A stretch of 17,001 nt of DNA from a virus. Taxonomy: Duplodnaviria; Heunggongvirae; Uroviricota; Caudoviricetes. The first letter of the stretch is position 1, and each line of letters begins with the position of its first letter. A model generated the notes under the pieces. That model was not told the DNA's origin. It searched no databases and saw only the letters and a program-made list of their open reading frames with translations. Both the position numbers and the translations under genes were made by a program. The stretch is from IMG/VR virus record IMGVR_UViG_3300028991_000008, positions 1 through 17,001 of that record; one strand, 5' to 3'. This document shows, piece after piece, positions 1 to 5,752 of this stretch.

Positions 1-444
1 CTGGATGAAAAGGAAGGTAACCACACCACGGCATACCGTGATGGTGCGGGTATCTGGACCATCTGCCGTGGTGCCATCCTGGTGGATGGCAAACCTGTCG
101 TTCCGGGCATGAAGTTGTCGAAGGAAAAATGCGACCAGGTTAACGCCATTGAGCGTGATAAAGCGCTGGCGTGGGTGGAGAAAAACATCAGAGTGCCGCT
201 GACCGAACCCCAGAAAGCGGGGATCGCGTCATTCTGTCCTTACAACATCGGCCCAGGTAAGTGTTTCCCGTCGACGTTTTATAAACGAATTAATGCGGGC
301 GATCGCAGAGGAGCGTGTGAAGCGATTCGCTGGTGGATTAAGGACGGTGGGCGTGATTGCCGCACACGTTCAAATAACTGCTACGGACAGGTTATTCGTC
401 GTGACCAGGAAAGCGCATTAGCCTGTTGGGGGATAGATCAGTGA
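1..444 (+). CDS. Phage endolysin, T4-lysozyme-like (GH24) family, 5'-partial; gene continues upstream of the window
   Basis: Open frame from position 1 to TGA at 442-444. The translation (…[14 protein letters not shown]…[22 protein letters not shown]…) resembles my recollection of enterobacterial prophage lysozymes of the RrrD/phage 21 type. It is immediately followed by Rz/Rz1, as in lambdoid lysis cassettes. Confidence 0.85.
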
Positions 445-878
445 GAAGAGTAGCCGCGATTATCTCCGCTCTGGTTATTTGCATCATCGTCTGCCTGTCA
501 TGGGCTGTTAATCATTACCGTGATAACGCCATTACCTATAAAGAACAGCGCGATAAAGCCAGGTACATCATCGCTGACATGCAGAAGCGTCAACGTGATG
601 TAGCAGAACTTGACGCCAGATACACAAAGGAGCTTGCTGATGCTAACGCGACTATCGAAAGTCTCCGTGCTGATGTTTCTGCTGGGCGTAAGCGCCTGCA
701 AGTCGCCGCCACCTGTGCAAAGTCAACGACCGGAGCCAGCAGCATGGGCGATGGAGAAAGCCCAGGACTTACAGCAGATGCTGAACTCAATTATTACCGT
801 CTCCGAAGTGGAATCGACAAGATAACCGCGCAGGTCAACTACCTGCAGGAGTACATCAGGACGCAGTGCTTAAAATAA
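441..878 (+). CDS. Rz: Rz-like inner-membrane spanin (i-spanin)
   Basis: Translation from GTG 441 ([34 protein letters not shown]…) is close to lambda Rz (…[30 protein letters not shown]…). The start overlaps the endolysin stop as GTGA. It has an N-terminal transmembrane segment and a coiled-coil-like remainder. Confidence 0.92.
640..825 (+). CDS. Rz1: Rz1-like outer-membrane lipoprotein spanin (o-spanin), embedded in the +1 frame of Rz
   Basis: ORF nested wholly inside Rz in another frame. ATG 640 is preceded by AGGAG. The product [20 protein letters not shown]… has a signal peptide and a lipobox-like Cys, followed by a proline-rich stretch ([13 protein letters not shown]), like lambda Rz1. 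Confidence 0.85.
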
Positions 879-917
879 TTTTAATTTCACTGAAATTTAA
901 TACGTGACTTTCAGGAA

Positions 918-945
918 AATGCCTCGCAGATGAGGGGCATTTTTG
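918..945 (+). terminator. Putative Rho-independent terminator downstream of Rz/Rz1
   Basis: Imperfect GC-rich inverted repeat (tgcctc … gagg(g)gca) followed directly by TTTTT, about 40 nt after the Rz stop. Confidence 0.55.
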
Positions 946-1237
946 TACAGGTATTTCACCGCGCACCGCAGCGCACTCAACCACGTCGAACCAAACCCTT
1001 TGGAATGAGCCTTTGAGTAGTCAGTTAGTGCTGGTGAGCCTTGACGGGCTGATCTCCTATGCAGCAAAGGTTCATCTCAAAGTAAGGCGAACGCTATGAC
1101 AAACCAAGATTCTATAGACCTATCTGATCTTCGTGGAATGGTCAGTTTTCCAGACAAAAGGTAATCACCATAGTCGTATGGCTATGAATCTTGTTGCTGC
1201 AGATAAGCATTTTGTGATTGAAGTGGTCAAATCTCTC

Positions 1238-1266
1238 AAATGCAGTAAAATGCAGTGCGCTATAAT
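1238..1266 (+). promoter_or_regulatory. Candidate sigma70 promoter for the 206-aa accessory gene: consensus -10 TATAAT (1261-1266) overlapped upstream by a tandem AAATGCAGT direct repeat
   Basis: Perfect TATAAT hexamer 29 nt upstream of ATG 1295, followed by GGAGGG/AGGAGA Shine-Dalgarno sequences. No good -35 hexamer. The tandem repeat AAATGCAGT (1238-1246 and 1248-1256) occupies the -35 region. Confidence 0.4.
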
Positions 1267-1294
1267 TCAATAACGGAGGGAGTAAGGAGAAGTC

Positions 1295-1915
1295 ATGAAA
1301 GATCAAGATGTTAGGTTCGCGGTGCATCATAAGCTTTTGAAAGAATCGCATTTAGATCCAGACTGCCTTGTGGTCGATGAATTTTCCATATCCCTTGGCG
1401 CCAGTAGAGCAGACATTGCTGTAATAAATGGTGTTATACACGGGTACGAGCTCAAAAGTGAATATGACTCTTTGGAGCGTTTGCCTCTTCAAATCAAGCA
1501 TTATTCTTCTGTAATGGACAAGGTTACTCTTGTCGTAGCTGAGAAACATCTTGAGGGAGCATTAAAGTTAATCCCAGGTTGGTGGGGCGTTAAAACGGTT
1601 TCTGTTGGGCCAAAAGGCGCCATTCTTATAAAGCACATGCGTGGAGAAAAGCTTAATCGAAACCATGACACATTGATGCTCGCTCAATTGCTTTGGAAAG
1701 ATGAATGTATCGACGTACTTGAACGATGGGGCTATTCCAAAGGAATCAAAAGCAAGCCCCGATTTGAGTTATGGAATATTATTGCGGAAAATATTCCAAT
1801 AGCGAATCTCAGGCTTGAAGTCAGAACAGCCTTAAAGAAACGCGTAGGCTGGAAAGTTAAGGCTTGGCAGGATGAGTCTGCGCCAACCAATAAAGCTGTC
1901 TCACGACTAACGTAA
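1295..1915 (+). CDS. Hypothetical accessory (moron) protein, 206 aa, with a PD-(D/E)xK-like nuclease motif; candidate defence component
   Basis: ORF with strong RBS (AGGAGA) and ATG start. Motif E29 … D40(IAVINGVIHGY)E52-L-K54 fits the restriction-endonuclease-fold catalytic signature. AT-rich composition unlike the flanking phage genes. No counterpart at this position in lambda. Confidence 0.8.
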   Translation: MKDQDVRFAVHHKLLKESHLDPDCLVVDEFSISLGASRADIAVINGVIHGYELKSEYDSLERLPLQIKHYSSVMDKVTLVVAEKHLEGALKLIPGWWGVKTVSVGPKGAILIKHMRGEKLNRNHDTLMLAQLLWKDECIDVLERWGYSKGIKSKPRFELWNIIAENIPIANLRLEVRTALKKRVGWKVKAWQDESAPTNKAVSRLT

Positions 1916-2924
1916 TATGGTGCGTATGTGCAACTTTACGCCATTCTTTAGAGCCGCCAGATTTGTTAGCGCCTAATGATCTTTGGTAAATGTAATCATC
2001 CCCCCAACTAAATTTGGAGCCAAAGACTTGATACTCTGGCGAACTAACAAGGGTAGTACATAAGTTTTTAGTTTGGCCCCATCCATTTCCTTTAACTGCG
2101 GTACCTTTTACAAAGATCCATGAGGTATCGTTCGAATATCTCACTGAGACATACTGAGACATGAAGCGTGGGTCTACGCTCGTAATGGTAGAGCTAGCGG
2201 TGGGATAATCACTAAAACTTGGCGTTCTTCCATTGCTAAAATTCTGTACTACGTACATCCAAAGATCGTATTCATGGCGCGGAATATGATGAACTTGATG
2301 TTGCGGTATCCCTGCCTGTGATGCCGGGTATGCGGTTGAAGATAAAATCAAGTTTCTCCACGGAGCCTGGCCTGATAATGTGTTGACCATGCTTAATGCT
2401 TGTTGTTTTAAACTATCAGTTGCGTTTTGAATATCTCCAAAATCAATGATTACATCAATTAAACTAGGATGAATATTTAAGTGGTTAACCAGACTTGTGA
2501 ATTGGTGCCATGTCTGGGGGGTGATAGATATAGCGAGCCCATTGATTAAGTTGTGTTGAACAGCATGTATATAGTTTGTTGAATATGCGGGAGAAACAAC
2601 AGGGATAATTTCCTTACCATTTACTCTAGCATCTTGGATACACATATCTAGAGGATGATGGCGGCTCGAACCATGTTTATCTAAATATTTAACATCCAGC
2701 AAAACAGGACGATTGGCTTTCCAGGATGCCGCAAGGTTAATACCGAAGTCAGATAAGTAAGAACTCAAACTCTTCTTGTAGCATTCGTTTTCATAATCCC
2801 AGTCTATGTCTGGAATGGTAATGATCGGAGTAAAACCAGAGAGCGTAGTTTGATCTAAAAGCATCAGAGATTCATATTCAGCAGGCTTCCATTTCAGCTG
2901 TGGATAATATTGATGTTGACTCAT
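1857..2924 (-). CDS. Hypothetical accessory (moron) protein, 355 aa, unknown function; candidate defence component, convergent with the 206-aa gene
   Basis: Long minus-strand ORF with a near-perfect Shine-Dalgarno (minus strand AAGGAGTTTTAATG). AT-rich, with an AT-rich upstream region (2925-3060). Its 3' end overlaps the 3' end of the 206-aa gene by 59 nt. I recognise no motif with confidence. Confidence 0.8.
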   Translation of the reverse strand: MSQHQYYPQLKWKPAEYESLMLLDQTTLSGFTPIITIPDIDWDYENECYKKSLSSYLSDFGINLAASWKANRPVLLDVKYLDKHGSSRHHPLDMCIQDARVNGKEIIPVVSPAYSTNYIHAVQHNLINGLAISITPQTWHQFTSLVNHLNIHPSLIDVIIDFGDIQNATDSLKQQALSMVNTLSGQAPWRNLILSSTAYPASQAGIPQHQVHHIPRHEYDLWMYVVQNFSNGRTPSFSDYPTASSTITSVDPRFMSQYVSVRYSNDTSWIFVKGTAVKGNGWGQTKNLCTTLVSSPEYQVFGSKFSWGDDYIYQRSLGANKSGGSKEWRKVAHTHHITLVVRQLYWLAQTHPAKP

Positions 2925-2947
2925 TAAAACTCCTTAAAATCTTTACT

Positions 2948-2985
2948 TATTCTAAGTATAGTGTTATGGCGTAATGCCAATTGTT
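2948..2985 (-). promoter_or_regulatory. Candidate promoter region for the 355-aa gene
   Basis: On the minus strand there is a TATACT -10-like hexamer (plus 2955-2960) and a TTGGCA -35-like hexamer (plus 2975-2980), but the spacing is only 14 nt. The whole region is AT-rich. Assignment is weak. Confidence 0.25.
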
Positions 2986-3147
2986 TTTATACACTTGAAA
3001 ACATTGGGAAAAGTTGAGCTATATCTAAATTTACAAAATAGGATGTTATAGAAATCGAGGTTTCAACTAGGCATGGAACTGCAAAATTTTTAATGCCTGC
3101 ACGCGAAAGTCGTTGGCGGGTCCTTTCCGGTGATCCAGACCGTTACG

Positions 3148-3159
3148 GGGCGGCGACCT
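3148..3159 (+). other. cosN: cosN 12-nt cohesive-end sequence GGGCGGCGACCT (identical to lambda)
   Basis: Exact match to the lambda cohesive end as I recall it, in a flanking context that is also lambda-like. Confidence 0.9.
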
Positions 3160-3197
3160 CGCGGGTTTTCACTATTTATGAAAATTTTTCGGGATCC

Positions 3198-3295
3198 ATG
3201 TCCGGTTTCTCTTCAAGTTAACTACATGAAAAATATAAAAACAGGCTTTCCGTGAACCGGACATGCGCAAAAAATGGGCATGTGAACCGGACATG
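3198..3295 (+). repeat. cosB: cosB-like array of three terminase small-subunit binding repeats (core AACCGGACATG, one inverted and two direct)
   Basis: CATGTCCGGTT at 3198-3208 (inverted) and GTGAACCGGACATG at 3252-3265 and 3282-3295 (direct, 30-bp spacing). An AT-rich tract between the first and second copies could be an IHF bend site. Confidence 0.7.
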
Positions 3296-3342
3296 ACCGA
3301 TTTTGTTGTGATTGTGAGGTGAGAGTTTTTGCGAGGTGAGGA

Positions 3343-3852
3343 GTGGCTACGCAGACTGAAGTTGCCAGGCATTTAAGTCTGACCGATCGCCAGCTTCGCA
3401 GATTGCAGAAATTGCCGGGGGCCCCGATATCGAATAAGCGAGGGCAACTGGATCTGGATGCCTGGCGCGATTTTTACATATCGTATCTGAGGAGAAGTAA
3501 AAACGATGTGCCTGATGGCGATAGCGAAGACGACTATGAGGAGAAATTGCTTATTGCCAGATGGGAACTGACAGCGGAACAGGCTGTTACACAGCAGTTA
3601 AAAAATGAGGTGTCAAAAGGAAAACTTATTGACACCGGGTTCTGTATTTTTGCCCTCAGTAAGCTGGCAATGGCGTTATCCAGTACGCTTGATTCCATCC
3701 CTTTATCCATGCAGCGACAGTTTCCTGATTTAACACCGCGCCATCTTGACCATCTGAAAACCCTTATTGCGAAGGGAGCAAATCAGTGTGCGCGGGCGGG
3801 GGATAAATTACCGGATTTACTCGATGAATATATCAGAGCAACAACTGAATAA
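3343..3852 (+). CDS. nu1: Terminase small subunit (Nu1-like) with a divergent N-terminal DNA-binding domain
   Basis: GTG start after GAGGTGAGGAG. The C-terminal half (…TGFCIFALSKLAMALSSTLDSIPLSMQRQFPDLTPRHLDHLK…LPDLLDEYI) resembles lambda gpNu1. The N-terminal HTH region (EVARHLSLTDRQLRRL) does not. Confidence 0.9.
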   Translation: MATQTEVARHLSLTDRQLRRLQKLPGAPISNKRGQLDLDAWRDFYISYLRRSKNDVPDGDSEDDYEEKLLIARWELTAEQAVTQQLKNEVSKGKLIDTGFCIFALSKLAMALSSTLDSIPLSMQRQFPDLTPRHLDHLKTLIAKGANQCARAGDKLPDLLDEYIRATTE

Positions 3853-5752
3853 TATGATGGGCGCTGTCACAACAGCATTACAGCCCCTGATAAGGGCATT
3901 GCCGGTGACGCCAGTTGAATGGGCTGATCAAAATTATTATCTGCCTAAAGAATCTTCATATGGTGAGGGAGAATGGAAAACGCTGCCATTCCAGATCGCC
4001 ATCATGAACAGCATGGGGAATGATCAGATCCGCACTGTTAATCTGATTAAATCTGCCCGTGTTGGCTATACAAAGATGTTGCTGGGGGTGGTTGGGTATT
4101 TTATTGAGCATAAATCACGAAACAGTCTGCTTTTTCAGCCCACTGATTCTGCTGCTGAAGATTTTATGAAGTCTCACGTGGAGGCGACGATTCGGGACGT
4201 GCCATGCCTGAAAGACCTTTCCCCATGGCTGGGTCGTAAACATCGTGATAATACCCTCACGCTGAAACGCTTTTTATCGGGTGTGGGTTTCTGGTGCCTG
4301 GGTGGTGCGGCAGCAAAAAACTACCGTGAAAAATCCGTGGATGTGGTCTGCTATGACGAACTTTCCTCGTTCGAGCCGGATGTCGAAAAAGAGGGCTCGC
4401 CAACCCTGCTGGGGGATAAACGTATTGAGGGCTCGGTATGGCCAAAATCCATTCGCGGCTCGACGCCTAAAATAAAAGGTTCCTGCCAGATCGAAAAAGC
4501 GGCCAACGAGTCGGCGCATTTCATGCGTTTTTATGTGCCCTGCCCGCACTGTGGGGAGGCGCAGTATCTGAAATTTGGCGATGAATCCACGCCTTTTGGC
4601 CTTAAATGGGAGAAGGACATCCCCGAAAGTGTTTTCTACCTCTGTGAACATCATGGCTGCGTGATCCATCAGTCTGAACTGGACCAGAGCAACGGGCGGT
4701 GGATCTGTGAAAACACGGGGATGTGGACCCGTGACGGTCTGACGTTTTTCAGCGCCGAGGATAATGAAATTCCGCCGCCGCGCTCCATCACGTTCCATAT
4801 CTGGACGGCGTACAGTCCGTTCACCACCTGGGTACAGATAGTCTATGACTGGCTGGATGCACTGAAAGATCCCAACGGCCTGAAAACCTTTGTGAACACC
4901 ACGCTGGGCGAGACCTGGGAAGAGGCCGTGGGCGAAAAACTCGATCACCAGGTACTGATGGATAAGGTCGTGCATTACACGGCGGCGGTACCTGCCCGGG
5001 TGGTTTATCTGACGGCGGGCATTGACTCGCAGAGAAACCGTTTTGAGATGTATGTCTGGGGATGGGCACCGGGAGAGGAAGCTTTTCTGGTGGATAAAAT
5101 CATCATTATGGGGCGTCCCGATGAGGAAGAGACGCTGTTACGTGTGGATGCGGCGATCAACAAAAAATACTGCCATGCAGATGGAACCGAAATGACCATT
5201 TCCCGTGTCTGCTGGGACACCGGGGGGATCGATGGTGAAATTGTTTATCAGAGATCAAAAAAACACGGTGTTTTCCGGGTGCTGCCGGTAAAAGGCGCGT
5301 CTGTCTATGGCAAGCCGGTGATCACCATGCCAAAAACCCGCAATCAGCGGGGCGTGTATCTGTGTGAAGTGGGGACGGACACCGCAAAAGAAATTCTCTA
5401 TGCCCGTATGAAAGCCGATCCCACGCCTGTGGATGAAGCCACGTCGTATGCCATCCGTTTTCCTGATGATCCGGAGATTTTTTCGCAGACAGAGGCGCAG
5501 CAACTGGTCGCGGAAGAGCTTGTGGAGAAGTGGGAAAAAGGAAAGATGCGTCTGCTGTGGGATAACAAAAAGCGGCGTAACGAAGCGCTGGACTGCCTGG
5601 TGTATGCCTACGCGGCATTACGTGTGTCCGTGCAACGCTGGCAGCTTGATCTGGCTGTACTGGCAAAATCCCGGGAAGAAGAGACGACCCGGCCAACCCT
5701 GAAAGAACTGGCAGCGAAGCTGTCCGGAGGAGTGAATGGTTACAGTCGCTGA
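3824..5752 (+). CDS. A: Terminase large subunit (gpA-like)
   Basis: The translation from ATG 3824 (MNISEQQLNNMMGAV…) closely follows lambda gpA over its length (e.g. WADQNYYLPKES, KSARVGYTKMLLGV, WCLGGAAAKNYREKSVDVVCYDE, HIWTAYSPFTTWVQIV). The start overlaps the Nu1 3' end, as in lambda. Confidence 0.95.
   Translation: MNISEQQLNNMMGAVTTALQPLIRALPVTPVEWADQNYYLPKESSYGEGEWKTLPFQIAIMNSMGNDQIRTVNLIKSARVGYTKMLLGVVGYFIEHKSRNSLLFQPTDSAAEDFMKSHVEATIRDVPCLKDLSPWLGRKHRDNTLTLKRFLSGVGFWCLGGAAAKNYREKSVDVVCYDELSSFEPDVEKEGSPTLLGDKRIEGSVWPKSIRGSTPKIKGSCQIEKAANESAHFMRFYVPCPHCGEAQYLKFGDESTPFGLKWEKDIPESVFYLCEHHGCVIHQSELDQSNGRWICENTGMWTRDGLTFFSAEDNEIPPPRSITFHIWTAYSPFTTWVQIVYDWLDALKDPNGLKTFVNTTLGETWEEAVGEKLDHQVLMDKVVHYTAAVPARVVYLTAGIDSQRNRFEMYVWGWAPGEEAFLVDKIIIMGRPDEEETLLRVDAAINKKYCHADGTEMTISRVCWDTGGIDGEIVYQRSKKHGVFRVLPVKGASVYGKPVITMPKTRNQRGVYLCEVGTDTAKEILYARMKADPTPVDEATSYAIRFPDDPEIFSQTEAQQLVAEELVEKWEKGKMRLLWDNKKRRNEALDCLVYAYAALRVSVQRWQLDLAVLAKSREEETTRPTLKELAAKLSGGVNGYSR

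What the first reader, a model, noticed from the sequence alone, without database searches (positions are those of the whole stretch)
1857..2924. 355-aa minus-strand protein with no recognisable motif, oriented against phage late transcription
The gene has a near-consensus RBS (AAGGAG, 6-nt spacer) and its own AT-rich upstream region next to cosQ. It is transcribed opposite to the lysis-to-head late transcript. Q-antiterminated late transcription would therefore read antisense through it, which could shut the gene off during lytic growth. That fits a function expressed from the resident prophage in lysogens.
Basis: partly seen in the sequence, partly recalled or inferred. Interest (0 to 1): 0.6.

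Follow-up and report, generated by a model that had tools for sequence, protein, structure and literature searches.

The report
Prophage beta/nuclease two-gene defence-like cassette
The "orphan" gene belongs to the known phage P4 Beta protein family and is half of a widespread two-gene cassette (a TIM-barrel protein plus a predicted nuclease) that this lambda-like prophage carries as cargo next to its packaging site, most likely to fend off other phages.

Summary
The 355-aa minus-strand ORF (1857-2924) is real and under purifying selection (dN/dS 0.08). It is not motif-free. It is a full-length Pfam PF14350 "Beta_protein" (E 9e-56), and RefSeq already names it "beta family protein".

This is an sce7726 / P4-cII-like protein with an intact PD-(D/E)xK nuclease motif and fold. 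The two genes overlap tail-to-tail by 59 nt.

The same convergent pair recurs from Enterobacterales to Gordonia phages, in prophages, satellites and defence islands. Of 19 cII-like clusters from viral contigs, 18 have it.

The pair sits in a low-GC cargo island between Rz and lambda-type cos. Related prophages carry other cargo in this slot; lambda carries bor there.

Distant relatives belong to tested anti-phage systems: P4 gop-beta-cII and PD-lambda-2. This version lacks gop, and I found no experimental test of it.

Best reading: a self-contained, lysogen-expressed defence cassette, with the nuclease as effector and the TIM-barrel Beta as sensor or regulator. Antisense shut-off by late transcription is plausible but unproven. 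Beta's orientation relative to the flanking phage operon is not conserved across contexts.

The parts
1857..2924 (-). beta family gene (355 aa), predicted TIM-barrel protein; the finding itself
2930..2935 (-). Shine-Dalgarno AAGGAG, 5-nt spacer (TTTTA) to the ATG at 2924
   Evidence: Read from the sequence. AAGGA is invariant in the upstream alignment of six genera.
2986..3030 (-). Conserved upstream blocks (ATTTAGATATAGCTCAA at 3030-3014, TTTTCA at 3001-2996, TATAAA -10-like hexamer at 2991-2986); candidate own promoter or operator of beta
   Evidence: Phylogenetic footprint across window, Pantoea, Pectobacterium, Klebsiella and Edwardsiella. The consensus scan found no full sigma-70 match here, so promoter function is inferred only.
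1295..1915 (+). sce7726 / P4-cII-like gene (206 aa), predicted PD-(D/E)xK nuclease with a C-terminal helical domain; partner of beta
1224..1266 (+). Candidate promoter of the nuclease gene: TGGTCA-16-TAAAAT (1224-1251), a second TATAAT (1261-1266), and tandem ATGCAGT repeats (1240-1246, 1250-1256) overlapping the -10
   Evidence: Promoter scan. Conserved almost base for base in five genera.
1857..1915 (.). 59-nt tail-to-tail overlap of the two coding regions
   Evidence: Coordinates. A 3' overlap is the rule in relatives, commonly 59, 44, 41 or 11 nt. The extra 16-aa tail of the window's nuclease is not conserved, and residues 192-206 are predicted disordered.
1100..3117 (.). Low-GC cargo island (36-44% GC) holding only the two-gene cassette
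   Evidence: Composition profile. The full 2.4 kb is present in 126 of 5426 complete E. coli genomes, while the flanks are in about 4100. Homology to lambda begins only at about 3118.
904..1099 (+). Remnant of a rha (P22-type) gene between Rz and the island
   Evidence: 85-87% DNA identity to rha of P22 and related phages over query positions 5-200. No intact ORF here.
3118..3159 (+). Lambda-type cos: segment matching the lambda right end (the segment expected to carry cosQ) at 3118-3147, and the cosN cohesive end GGGCGGCGACCT at 3148-3159
   Evidence: Alignment to the lambda right end and sequence.
426..878 (+). Rz spanin gene; last late lysis gene upstream of the slot
   Evidence: Pfam Phage_lysis 4.6e-35.
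3343..3852 (+). Nu1 small terminase gene; first head gene downstream of the slot
   Evidence: Pfam Phage_Nu1 1e-18. RefSeq names it 'terminase small subunit'.

Best explanation
The ORF encodes a Beta-family TIM-barrel protein. It is one half of an autonomous, horizontally mobile two-gene cassette. The other half is the convergent, 3'-overlapping sce7726/cII-like PD-(D/E)xK nuclease gene at 1295-1915.

The cassette is a gop-less relative of the phage P4 gop-beta-cII locus. This lambda-like prophage carries it as cargo in the variable slot between Rz and cos.

Most likely mechanism (inferred): both genes are expressed from their own promoters in the lysogen, and together they protect the host and prophage against superinfecting phages. 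The conserved nuclease is the effector. The faster-evolving Beta protein is the partner that restrains or licenses it and responds to a phage cue, possibly through a conserved Asp/Asp/His/Glu/Arg pocket on the barrel.

Shown here: family membership, folds, catalytic-motif conservation, pairing, architecture, cargo status and purifying selection.

Inferred only: expression in lysogens, anti-phage activity, and which partner is effector and which is sensor.
For: Identity:
- Pfam Beta_protein 9.4e-56.
- The partner matches sce7726_fam at 2.3e-54 and PADLOC cII at 5e-31.
- P4 has the same beta-then-convergent-cII layout. Identity to P4 is 22% for beta and 27% for cII.

Folds:
- Beta is a confident TIM barrel. 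Its family-wide invariant polar residues, D77, D239 and H336, with R133, D161, E16 and E218 nearly invariant, lie mostly at strand ends.
- The partner has a PD-(D/E)xK fold and motif.

Obligate pairing:
- 18 of 19 cII-like clusters from IMG/VR have an adjacent convergent beta, usually with a 3' overlap.
- The same pair occurs in Edwardsiella, Yersinia, Vibrio, Acinetobacter, Burkholderia and Gordonia phage Powerball.

Defence-type contexts:
- Next to a type I R-M system.
- In a satellite-like element with a large Toprim/DUF927 primase related to P4 alpha, and an AlpA-family gene.
- Downstream of cI-type repressors.
- Beside hok/mok and HicAB.

Cargo status: low GC, present in 2.3% of E. coli genomes, and in a slot that is variable between related prophages.

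Autonomy: conserved upstream regions for both genes.

Literature on relatives:
- P4 gop-beta-cII protects against lambda and P1 (PMC9122126).
- Its cell-death response is triggered by phage orf184 (bioRxiv 10.1101/2023.04.06.535777).
- The Beta-like PD-lambda-2C is required for defence but not for neutralising the toxin (PMC9519451).

Beta diverges faster than the nuclease: 30% against 54%, and 27% against 45%.
Against: - No experiment exists on this gop-less two-gene form in the literature I could search.
- Identity to the tested relatives is low, and those systems contain extra toxic components (gop, or HigB-like plus Xre-peptidase) that are absent here.
- In P4, Beta was described as the antidote to Gop, not to cII, so the role assigned to the nuclease is an extrapolation.
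- One viral contig (L062) keeps an intact cII-like gene without beta. This argues against the nuclease being a constitutively lethal toxin.
- The consensus scan did not detect a canonical -35/-10 promoter for beta.
- In this orientation, late transcription would raise nuclease mRNA and oppose beta mRNA. That sits awkwardly with a simple toxin-antidote model.
Confidence: 0.6

Rival explanations
1. The pair is an addiction or toxin-antitoxin module whose main role is to stabilise the prophage or island rather than to defend against phages. The nuclease would be the toxin and Beta the antidote.
For: P4 gop/beta behave as a toxin-antidote pair, and PD-lambda-2 is toxin-antitoxin-like. The two genes are tightly and almost obligately paired. 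The cassette lies beside other TA loci: hok/mok and HicAB.
Against: The genes are convergent with separate promoters, not a co-transcribed TA operon. L062 carries the nuclease gene alone. Both tested relatives gave phage defence. The two roles are not mutually exclusive.
Confidence: 0.15
2. The pair is a restriction-modification-like self/non-self system. The TIM-barrel Beta would modify DNA, or make a modified base, and the PD-(D/E)xK protein would cleave unmodified incoming DNA.
Confidence: 0.08
3. The pair serves the phage's own biology, for example DNA repair or recombination, or lysogeny control (P4 cII was named from a plaque phenotype). It would not be immunity.
Against: The distribution is patchy (2.3% of E. 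coli genomes), in a slot that is interchangeable among near-identical prophages. The genes are described as non-essential in P4. The pair also occurs on non-phage chromosomal islands: next to a type I R-M system in Edwardsiella, and near RHS toxin genes in Burkholderia.
Confidence: 0.1
4. One reading: a lone lysogen-specific gene of unknown type, switched off in lytic growth by antisense late transcription.
For: Orientation against the late operon is confirmed. There are four sampled cases with the cassette in the lysis region: the window, Yersinia L004, and L062 and L067 among the viral contigs. In all four the cII-like gene runs with the lysis genes. Beta is antisense in the three that have it; L062 lacks beta. 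Lambda bor shares the position and strand.
Against: The gene is not alone and not of unknown type. In nin-region insertions the orientation is reversed. No expression data are available.
Confidence: 0.3

Closest known systems
Phage P4 gop-beta-cII locus (Ghisotti et al. 1990; anti-phage activity shown in Rousset et al. 2022, PMC9122126)
   Same: - Beta homologue of identical length (355 aa).
- A cII/sce7726 homologue convergent with beta.
- The cassette lies directly beside cos, with beta transcribed away from cos.
- Non-essential cargo in a hotspot.
   Different: - Only 22% (beta) and 27% (cII) identity.
- No gop gene. P4-type clades have a coupled 133-181-aa ORF upstream of beta and a long cII (244-270 aa). 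The window type has none, and its cII is short (about 190-206 aa).
- P4 has an intergenic terminator between the two genes, whereas here the coding regions overlap by 59 nt.
PD-lambda-2 (Vassallo et al. 2022, PMC9519451), component C
   Same: Its C component is a Beta-family protein. The window protein scores better against the PADLOC PD-Lambda-2_C models (5e-32) than against the P4 beta model (4e-10). C is needed for defence against lambda-vir.
   Different: PD-lambda-2 pairs the Beta-like protein with a HigB-like protein and a toxic Xre-peptidase fusion. Neither is present here. Here the partner is a PD-(D/E)xK nuclease.
Lambda bor and similar lysogenic-conversion 'morons' between Rz and cos
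   Same: Same genomic slot and, for bor, the same orientation against late transcription. The GC content is distinct and the content varies among related prophages.
   Different: The proteins and their functions are unrelated. Bor is an outer-membrane lipoprotein, whereas this is a cytoplasmic two-gene cassette.
MmcB-like / restriction-endonuclease-like PD-(D/E)xK nucleases (for the partner gene)
   Same: Fold and the E...D...E-x-K catalytic signature.
   Different: No significant sequence match to any solved structure. It has an added C-terminal helical domain. It is almost always paired with a Beta-family TIM barrel.

Membership tests
Pfam PF14350 Beta_protein | Full-length match above the curated gathering score | tested here: met
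   190.2 bits against a cut-off of 27, E 9.4e-56, residues 6-342 on profile positions 1-342 of 342.
Pfam PF14350 Beta_protein | Retention of residues invariant across the family | tested here: met
   P33, D77, P108, P200, D239 and H336 are invariant in 79 diverse members, including the window protein and P4 beta.
P4-type gop-beta-cII system | beta gene | tested here: met
   PADLOC beta 4.3e-10. End-to-end BLASTP alignment to P4 beta at 22% identity.
P4-type gop-beta-cII system | cII gene convergent with beta | tested here: met
   PADLOC cII 5.2e-31. 27% identity to P4 cII. P4 layout.
P4-type gop-beta-cII system | gop toxin gene immediately upstream of, and co-oriented with, beta | tested here: not met
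   There is no ORF of 90-200 aa upstream of beta. None of the six small flanking ORFs hits any PADLOC model, while the P4 gop control scores 4.8e-70.
P4-type gop-beta-cII system | Protection against lambda and P1; toxicity triggered by a phage gene | not testable with these tools
   Known only for the P4 and ECOR59 systems.
PD-lambda-2 | Beta-like C component | tested here: met
   PADLOC PD-Lambda-2_C 4.7e-32 and 2.5e-25.
PD-lambda-2 | HigB-like A and Xre-peptidase B components adjacent | tested here: not met
   Apart from short overlapping frames without database matches, the island holds only beta and the sce7726-like gene. The small ORFs give no PADLOC hit.
NCBIfam NF033832 sce7726 family / PD-(D/E)xK nucleases (partner gene) | Match above the curated cut-off, an intact E-D-ExK motif, and a restriction-endonuclease-like fold | tested here: met
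Prophage moron / lysogenic-conversion cargo | Insertion between conserved phage modules, atypical composition, and variable occupancy among related phages | tested here: met
   GC 36-44% against 50-56%. 126 genomes carry the cassette, against about 4100 with the flanks. Alternative cargo occupies the slot in other prophages.
Prophage moron / lysogenic-conversion cargo | Own promoter and terminator; expression from the repressed prophage | tested here: inconclusive
   Both genes have conserved upstream regions, with a 9-of-12 sigma-70 match for the nuclease gene only. No intergenic terminator is possible because the genes overlap. No expression data are available.
Type II toxin-antitoxin operon | Two co-transcribed genes in one operon | tested here: not met
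   The genes are convergent, each with its own upstream region.

The most novel reading that the evidence does not exclude
The beta plus cII-like pair, not the three-gene P4 locus, would be the ancestral minimal core of a very large, cross-phylum immunity family (about 4400 Beta clusters at 50% identity). In this reading Beta is a true enzyme or small-molecule sensor built on a TIM barrel, not a passive antidote. The conserved convergent, 3'-overlapping architecture would be part of the mechanism: mutual antisense transcription sets the Beta-to-nuclease ratio. Here, Q-antiterminated late transcription could tip that ratio, so that prophage induction or a superinfecting phage's interference with host transcription unleashes the nuclease.
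Probability: 0.15. Interest if true: 0.7.

Novelty: new variant of a known kind. Interest (0 to 1): 0.42.

Why it matters
The mechanisms of gop-beta-cII and of the Beta-like component of PD-lambda-2 are unknown. This locus shows that Beta and the cII-like nuclease form a self-standing pair without gop. The pair keeps the same convergent, overlapping layout from enterobacteria to actinobacteriophages.

That gives a simpler two-gene system to dissect. It also yields concrete, mutable residues: nuclease E29/D40/E52/K54, and Beta D77/D239/H336.

The result adds the lambda Rz-cos interval to the list of prophage slots that carry candidate immunity cargo.

For annotation, it corrects an apparent orphan gene to a known family.

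Tried and rejected
- **Spurious ORF:** rejected by homologues and dN/dS.
- **A gop gene hidden in the flanks:** none found by ORF listing, PADLOC or phmmer.
- **A specific enzyme assignment for Beta:**
  - The PDB profile search found nothing.
  - Relaxed Pfam scans of 79 members gave no consistent second family.
- **Link to NCBIfam sce7725:** only 2 of 79 Beta members hit it weakly (E 0.003). Left open.
- **Structured RNA or terminator in the 3' overlap:** folding is no better than shuffles (z 0.85 and -0.72). There were no Rfam matches in 1-4000.
- **Broad genome survey from the Beta side:** the first attempt failed because the alignment was too divergent. The second returned only 6 loci, so I surveyed from the more conserved cII side in viral contigs instead.
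- **A conserved rule that beta is antisense to the flanking phage operon:** rejected by nin-region insertions.
- **Literature:**
  - 'beta family protein' plus 'defense' returned only unrelated papers.
  - No paper in the library addresses the two-gene form.
Full report
**Observation.** The window has an ATG-initiated 355-codon ORF at 1857..2924 on the minus strand. AAGGAG lies at 2935-2930. Upstream DNA is AT-rich: 36-37% GC, against 50-56% in the neighbouring phage genes. The gene faces against the lysozyme (82-444), Rz (426-878), Nu1 (3343-3852) and terminase genes, all on the plus strand. Window 3118-3147 aligns with the right end of phage lambda and is followed by the lambda cohesive end GGGCGGCGACCT at 3148-3159. 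The gene start is therefore about 190 nt from the cosQ-bearing segment. These parts of the observation are correct.

**The "no recognisable motif" claim is wrong.**
- The protein matches Pfam PF14350 (Beta_protein) over its whole length at E 9.4e-56.
- It matches the PADLOC models PD-Lambda-2_C (4.7e-32) and P4 beta (4.3e-10), and phrog_9159.
- RefSeq already labels it "beta family protein" in the 126 of 5426 complete E. coli genomes that carry this 2.4-kb stretch.
- The frame is conserved. Thirty-three full-length homologues run from 99% to 31% identity across Enterobacterales and Vibrionaceae. dN/dS against the Edwardsiella copy is 0.078.

**The missed partner gene.** On the plus strand, 1295..1915 encodes a 206-aa protein.
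- It matches NCBIfam sce7726_fam (2.3e-54) and the PADLOC cII model of gop-beta-cII (5.2e-31).
- Its dN/dS is 0.039.
- The two coding regions converge and overlap by 59 nt (1857-1915).
- Phage P4 has the same layout: gop and beta rightward, cII leftward and convergent on beta. Identity to the window proteins is 22% for beta and 27% for cII.

**The pairing is near-obligate and the architecture is conserved.**
- Neighbourhoods of diverged Beta homologues always show the convergent cII-like gene. Examples are Edwardsiella at 77%, Yersinia at 61% and Vibrio at 53% identity.
- Neighbourhoods of diverged cII-like proteins always show a convergent Beta gene. These come from an Enterobacteriaceae satellite-like element, an Acinetobacter prophage, a lambdoid phage and a Burkholderia chromosome.
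- I fetched 80 IMG/VR loci from the cII side. They fall into 19 clusters at 90% identity, and 18 of these have an adjacent convergent beta.
- 3' overlaps of 59, 44, 41 or 11 nt are typical.
- The one exception, L062, has beta replaced by a kinase fragment and a PP2C-like gene.
- Gordonia phage Powerball gp33 (Beta family) converges on and overlaps gp32. That gene is annotated "exonuclease", and it is an sce7726 member by profile comparison (probability 100%, E 2e-53, 37% identity). The layout therefore spans phyla.

**What the proteins look like: Beta.**
- AlphaFold2 on a 48-sequence alignment gives a confident model (pLDDT 93.5, pTM 0.92) with alternating strand-helix units.
- Profile searches of the PDB and relaxed Pfam scans add nothing further.
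- An exhaustive search finds about 4400 cluster representatives. In the 150 best hits listed, nearly all are single-domain proteins of 350-370 aa.
- Across 79 diverse members the invariant residues are P33, D77, P108, P200, D239 and H336. Y6, P8, L10, E16, R133, D161, E218, G308, I312 and W328 are nearly invariant.
- D77, R133, D161 and D239 fall at or near strand ends. That is where TIM-barrel active sites lie (established knowledge). An enzymatic or ligand-binding pocket is therefore a reasonable inference, not a demonstration.

**What the proteins look like: the partner.**
- The model is confident (pLDDT 89.9), except for the non-conserved C-terminal tail at 192-206 that creates the long overlap.
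- E29, D40, E52 and K54 are invariant in 37 homologues.

**Cargo status.**
- GC falls to 36-44% between about 1100 and 3117.
- Just left of the island lies a remnant of a P22-type rha gene (904-1099).
- Similarity to lambda resumes only about 30 nt before cosN.
- Prophages sharing 96-97% identical cos-Nu1 DNA carry other genes in this slot: PerC plus YlcI in an O157:H7 strain, and a TonB-like gene in strain PEC011.
- Lambda itself has bor and lambdap78 there, both on the minus strand.
- Elsewhere the cassette sits:
  - next to a type I R-M system;
  - in a satellite-like element with a large primase related to P4 alpha;
  - immediately downstream of cI-type S24 repressors, with beta co-oriented;
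  - beside hok/mok in Rac-SA53, where the depositors already noted "beta" and "CII phage-like protein";
  - beside HicAB in Powerball.

**Own regulation.**
- The 70 nt before the nuclease gene are almost invariant in five genera. They contain TGGTCA-16-TAAAAT (1224-1251), a second TATAAT (1261-1266), and two ATGCAGT repeats 10 nt apart over the -10.
- Upstream of beta, two blocks are conserved in the same genera despite unrelated flanks. One includes a TATAAA hexamer at 2991-2986. No canonical -35 was found there.
- The overlap region shows no unusual RNA structure, and there are no Rfam matches.
- Because the coding regions overlap, the two mRNAs must be partly complementary. Whether this is regulatory is unknown.

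**Relation to known systems.**
- P4 gop-beta-cII lies beside P4 cos in a defence hotspot and protects against lambda and P1. Gop is toxic without Beta (PMC9122126).
- Its cell-death response is triggered by phage orf184 (bioRxiv 10.1101/2023.04.06.535777).
- In PD-lambda-2, the Beta-like C component is required for defence but not for neutralising the toxic Xre-peptidase (PMC9519451).
- The window lacks gop. None of the six small flanking ORFs hits any PADLOC model, while P4 Gop scores 4.8e-70 as a control.
- Across 25 Beta clusters, a coupled gop-like ORF occurs only in the three P4-type clusters, which also have a long cII of 244-270 aa. The other clusters that could be assessed have no gop-like ORF. 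Their cII is short (about 190-220 aa), except in Gordonia phage Powerball, where it is 253 aa.
- The window therefore fails membership of the three-gene system and of PD-lambda-2 as defined. It is a two-gene variant sharing their Beta component and, with P4, the cII component.
- I found no paper testing this variant.

**Mechanism.**
- Best supported (about 0.6): a lysogen-expressed, self-contained anti-phage cassette. The conserved nuclease is the effector, and the faster-diverging Beta is the restraining or sensing partner. Beta is 30% and 27% identical where the nuclease is 54% and 45% identical.
- Rivals: an addiction module, an R-M-like modifier-plus-nuclease pair, or a phage repair or lysogeny function. 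Each has weaker support; see the rival list.

It is partly reasonable.
- Late read-through would be antisense to beta here, and also in the Yersinia (L004) and L067 lysis-region insertions. In L062 the cII-like gene is likewise co-oriented with Rz, but beta is missing there.
- The same read-through would be sense for the nuclease gene.
- In nin-region insertions the orientation is the opposite.
- No expression data could be consulted.

**Verdict.** This is a real gene of a known family, already named in RefSeq. It was misread as an orphan because its partner and its family were not recognised. What is new is modest but useful: a gop-less, two-gene, convergent TIM-barrel-plus-nuclease cassette with unknown mechanism, occupying the lambda Rz-cos cargo slot.

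Noticed in passing
window 1240-1256 (+): Two ATGCAGT repeats spaced 10 nt apart overlap the -10 of the nuclease gene's candidate promoter. They are conserved in Pantoea, Pectobacterium, Klebsiella and Edwardsiella. This looks like an operator, possibly for autoregulation through the protein's C-terminal helical domain.
   Followed up: partly
window 2967-2990 (+): A plus-strand terminator-like hairpin (TGGCGTAATGCCA followed by a T-run) lies just beyond beta's start codon. It would stop a non-antiterminated plus-strand transcript only after that transcript had crossed the whole of beta in antisense. No plus-strand terminator was found between 1915 and 2967.
   Followed up: no
window 904-1099 (+): A roughly 200-bp remnant with 85-87% identity to the rha gene of P22 and related phages, with no intact ORF. 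It looks like a scar of earlier cargo turnover in the Rz-cos slot.
   Followed up: partly
window 3252-3265 and 3282-3295 (+), with a likely inverted copy near 3195-3208: The repeated sequence GTGAACCGGACATG lies between cosN and the Nu1 start. Its position fits cosB-type binding sites for the small terminase.
   Followed up: no
L062 3414-5810: A lambdoid viral contig has an intact cII-like gene right after Rz but no beta. A truncated Ser/Thr-kinase-like ORF and a PP2C-like ORF take beta's place. The nuclease gene can therefore persist alone.
   Followed up: partly
L013 5001-7620; L110 2864-5758: In Acinetobacter and Achromobacter prophages the cassette sits directly downstream of the cI-type S24 repressor with beta co-oriented, the position rexAB occupies in lambda. 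This hints at co-expression with the repressor in lysogens.
   Followed up: no
L113 2429-4241 (Gordonia phage Powerball gp33/gp32): The gene annotated 'exonuclease' (gp32) is an sce7726/cII-like protein (hhalign E 2e-53). It overlaps the 3' end of a Beta-family gene by 89 nt, next to HicAB. The public annotation hides the pairing.
   Followed up: yes
Alignment A4 (Beta family members): Two of 79 Beta-family proteins give weak hits (E 0.003) to NCBIfam sce7725_fam, the family that NCBI pairs with sce7726. A Leptospira paper lists sce7725 and sce7726 proteins within one small genomic region. sce7725 may be a very distant Beta relative.
   Followed up: partly
Literature: Acinetobacter plasmids pAC1633-1 / pAC1530: In a figure of these plasmids, an sce7726-family gene is labelled together with an ImmA/IrrE metallopeptidase gene. 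This recalls the Xre-peptidase component of PD-lambda-2 and suggests partner swapping among these modules.
   Followed up: no
window 82-444 and 3767-5752: The mechanical ORF list starts the lysozyme at a GTG, giving a 120-aa product that matches only positions 27-125 of the Pfam model. It starts the large terminase at a TTG upstream of the RefSeq start in the near-identical strain. The true starts probably differ from the listed ORFs.
   Followed up: no
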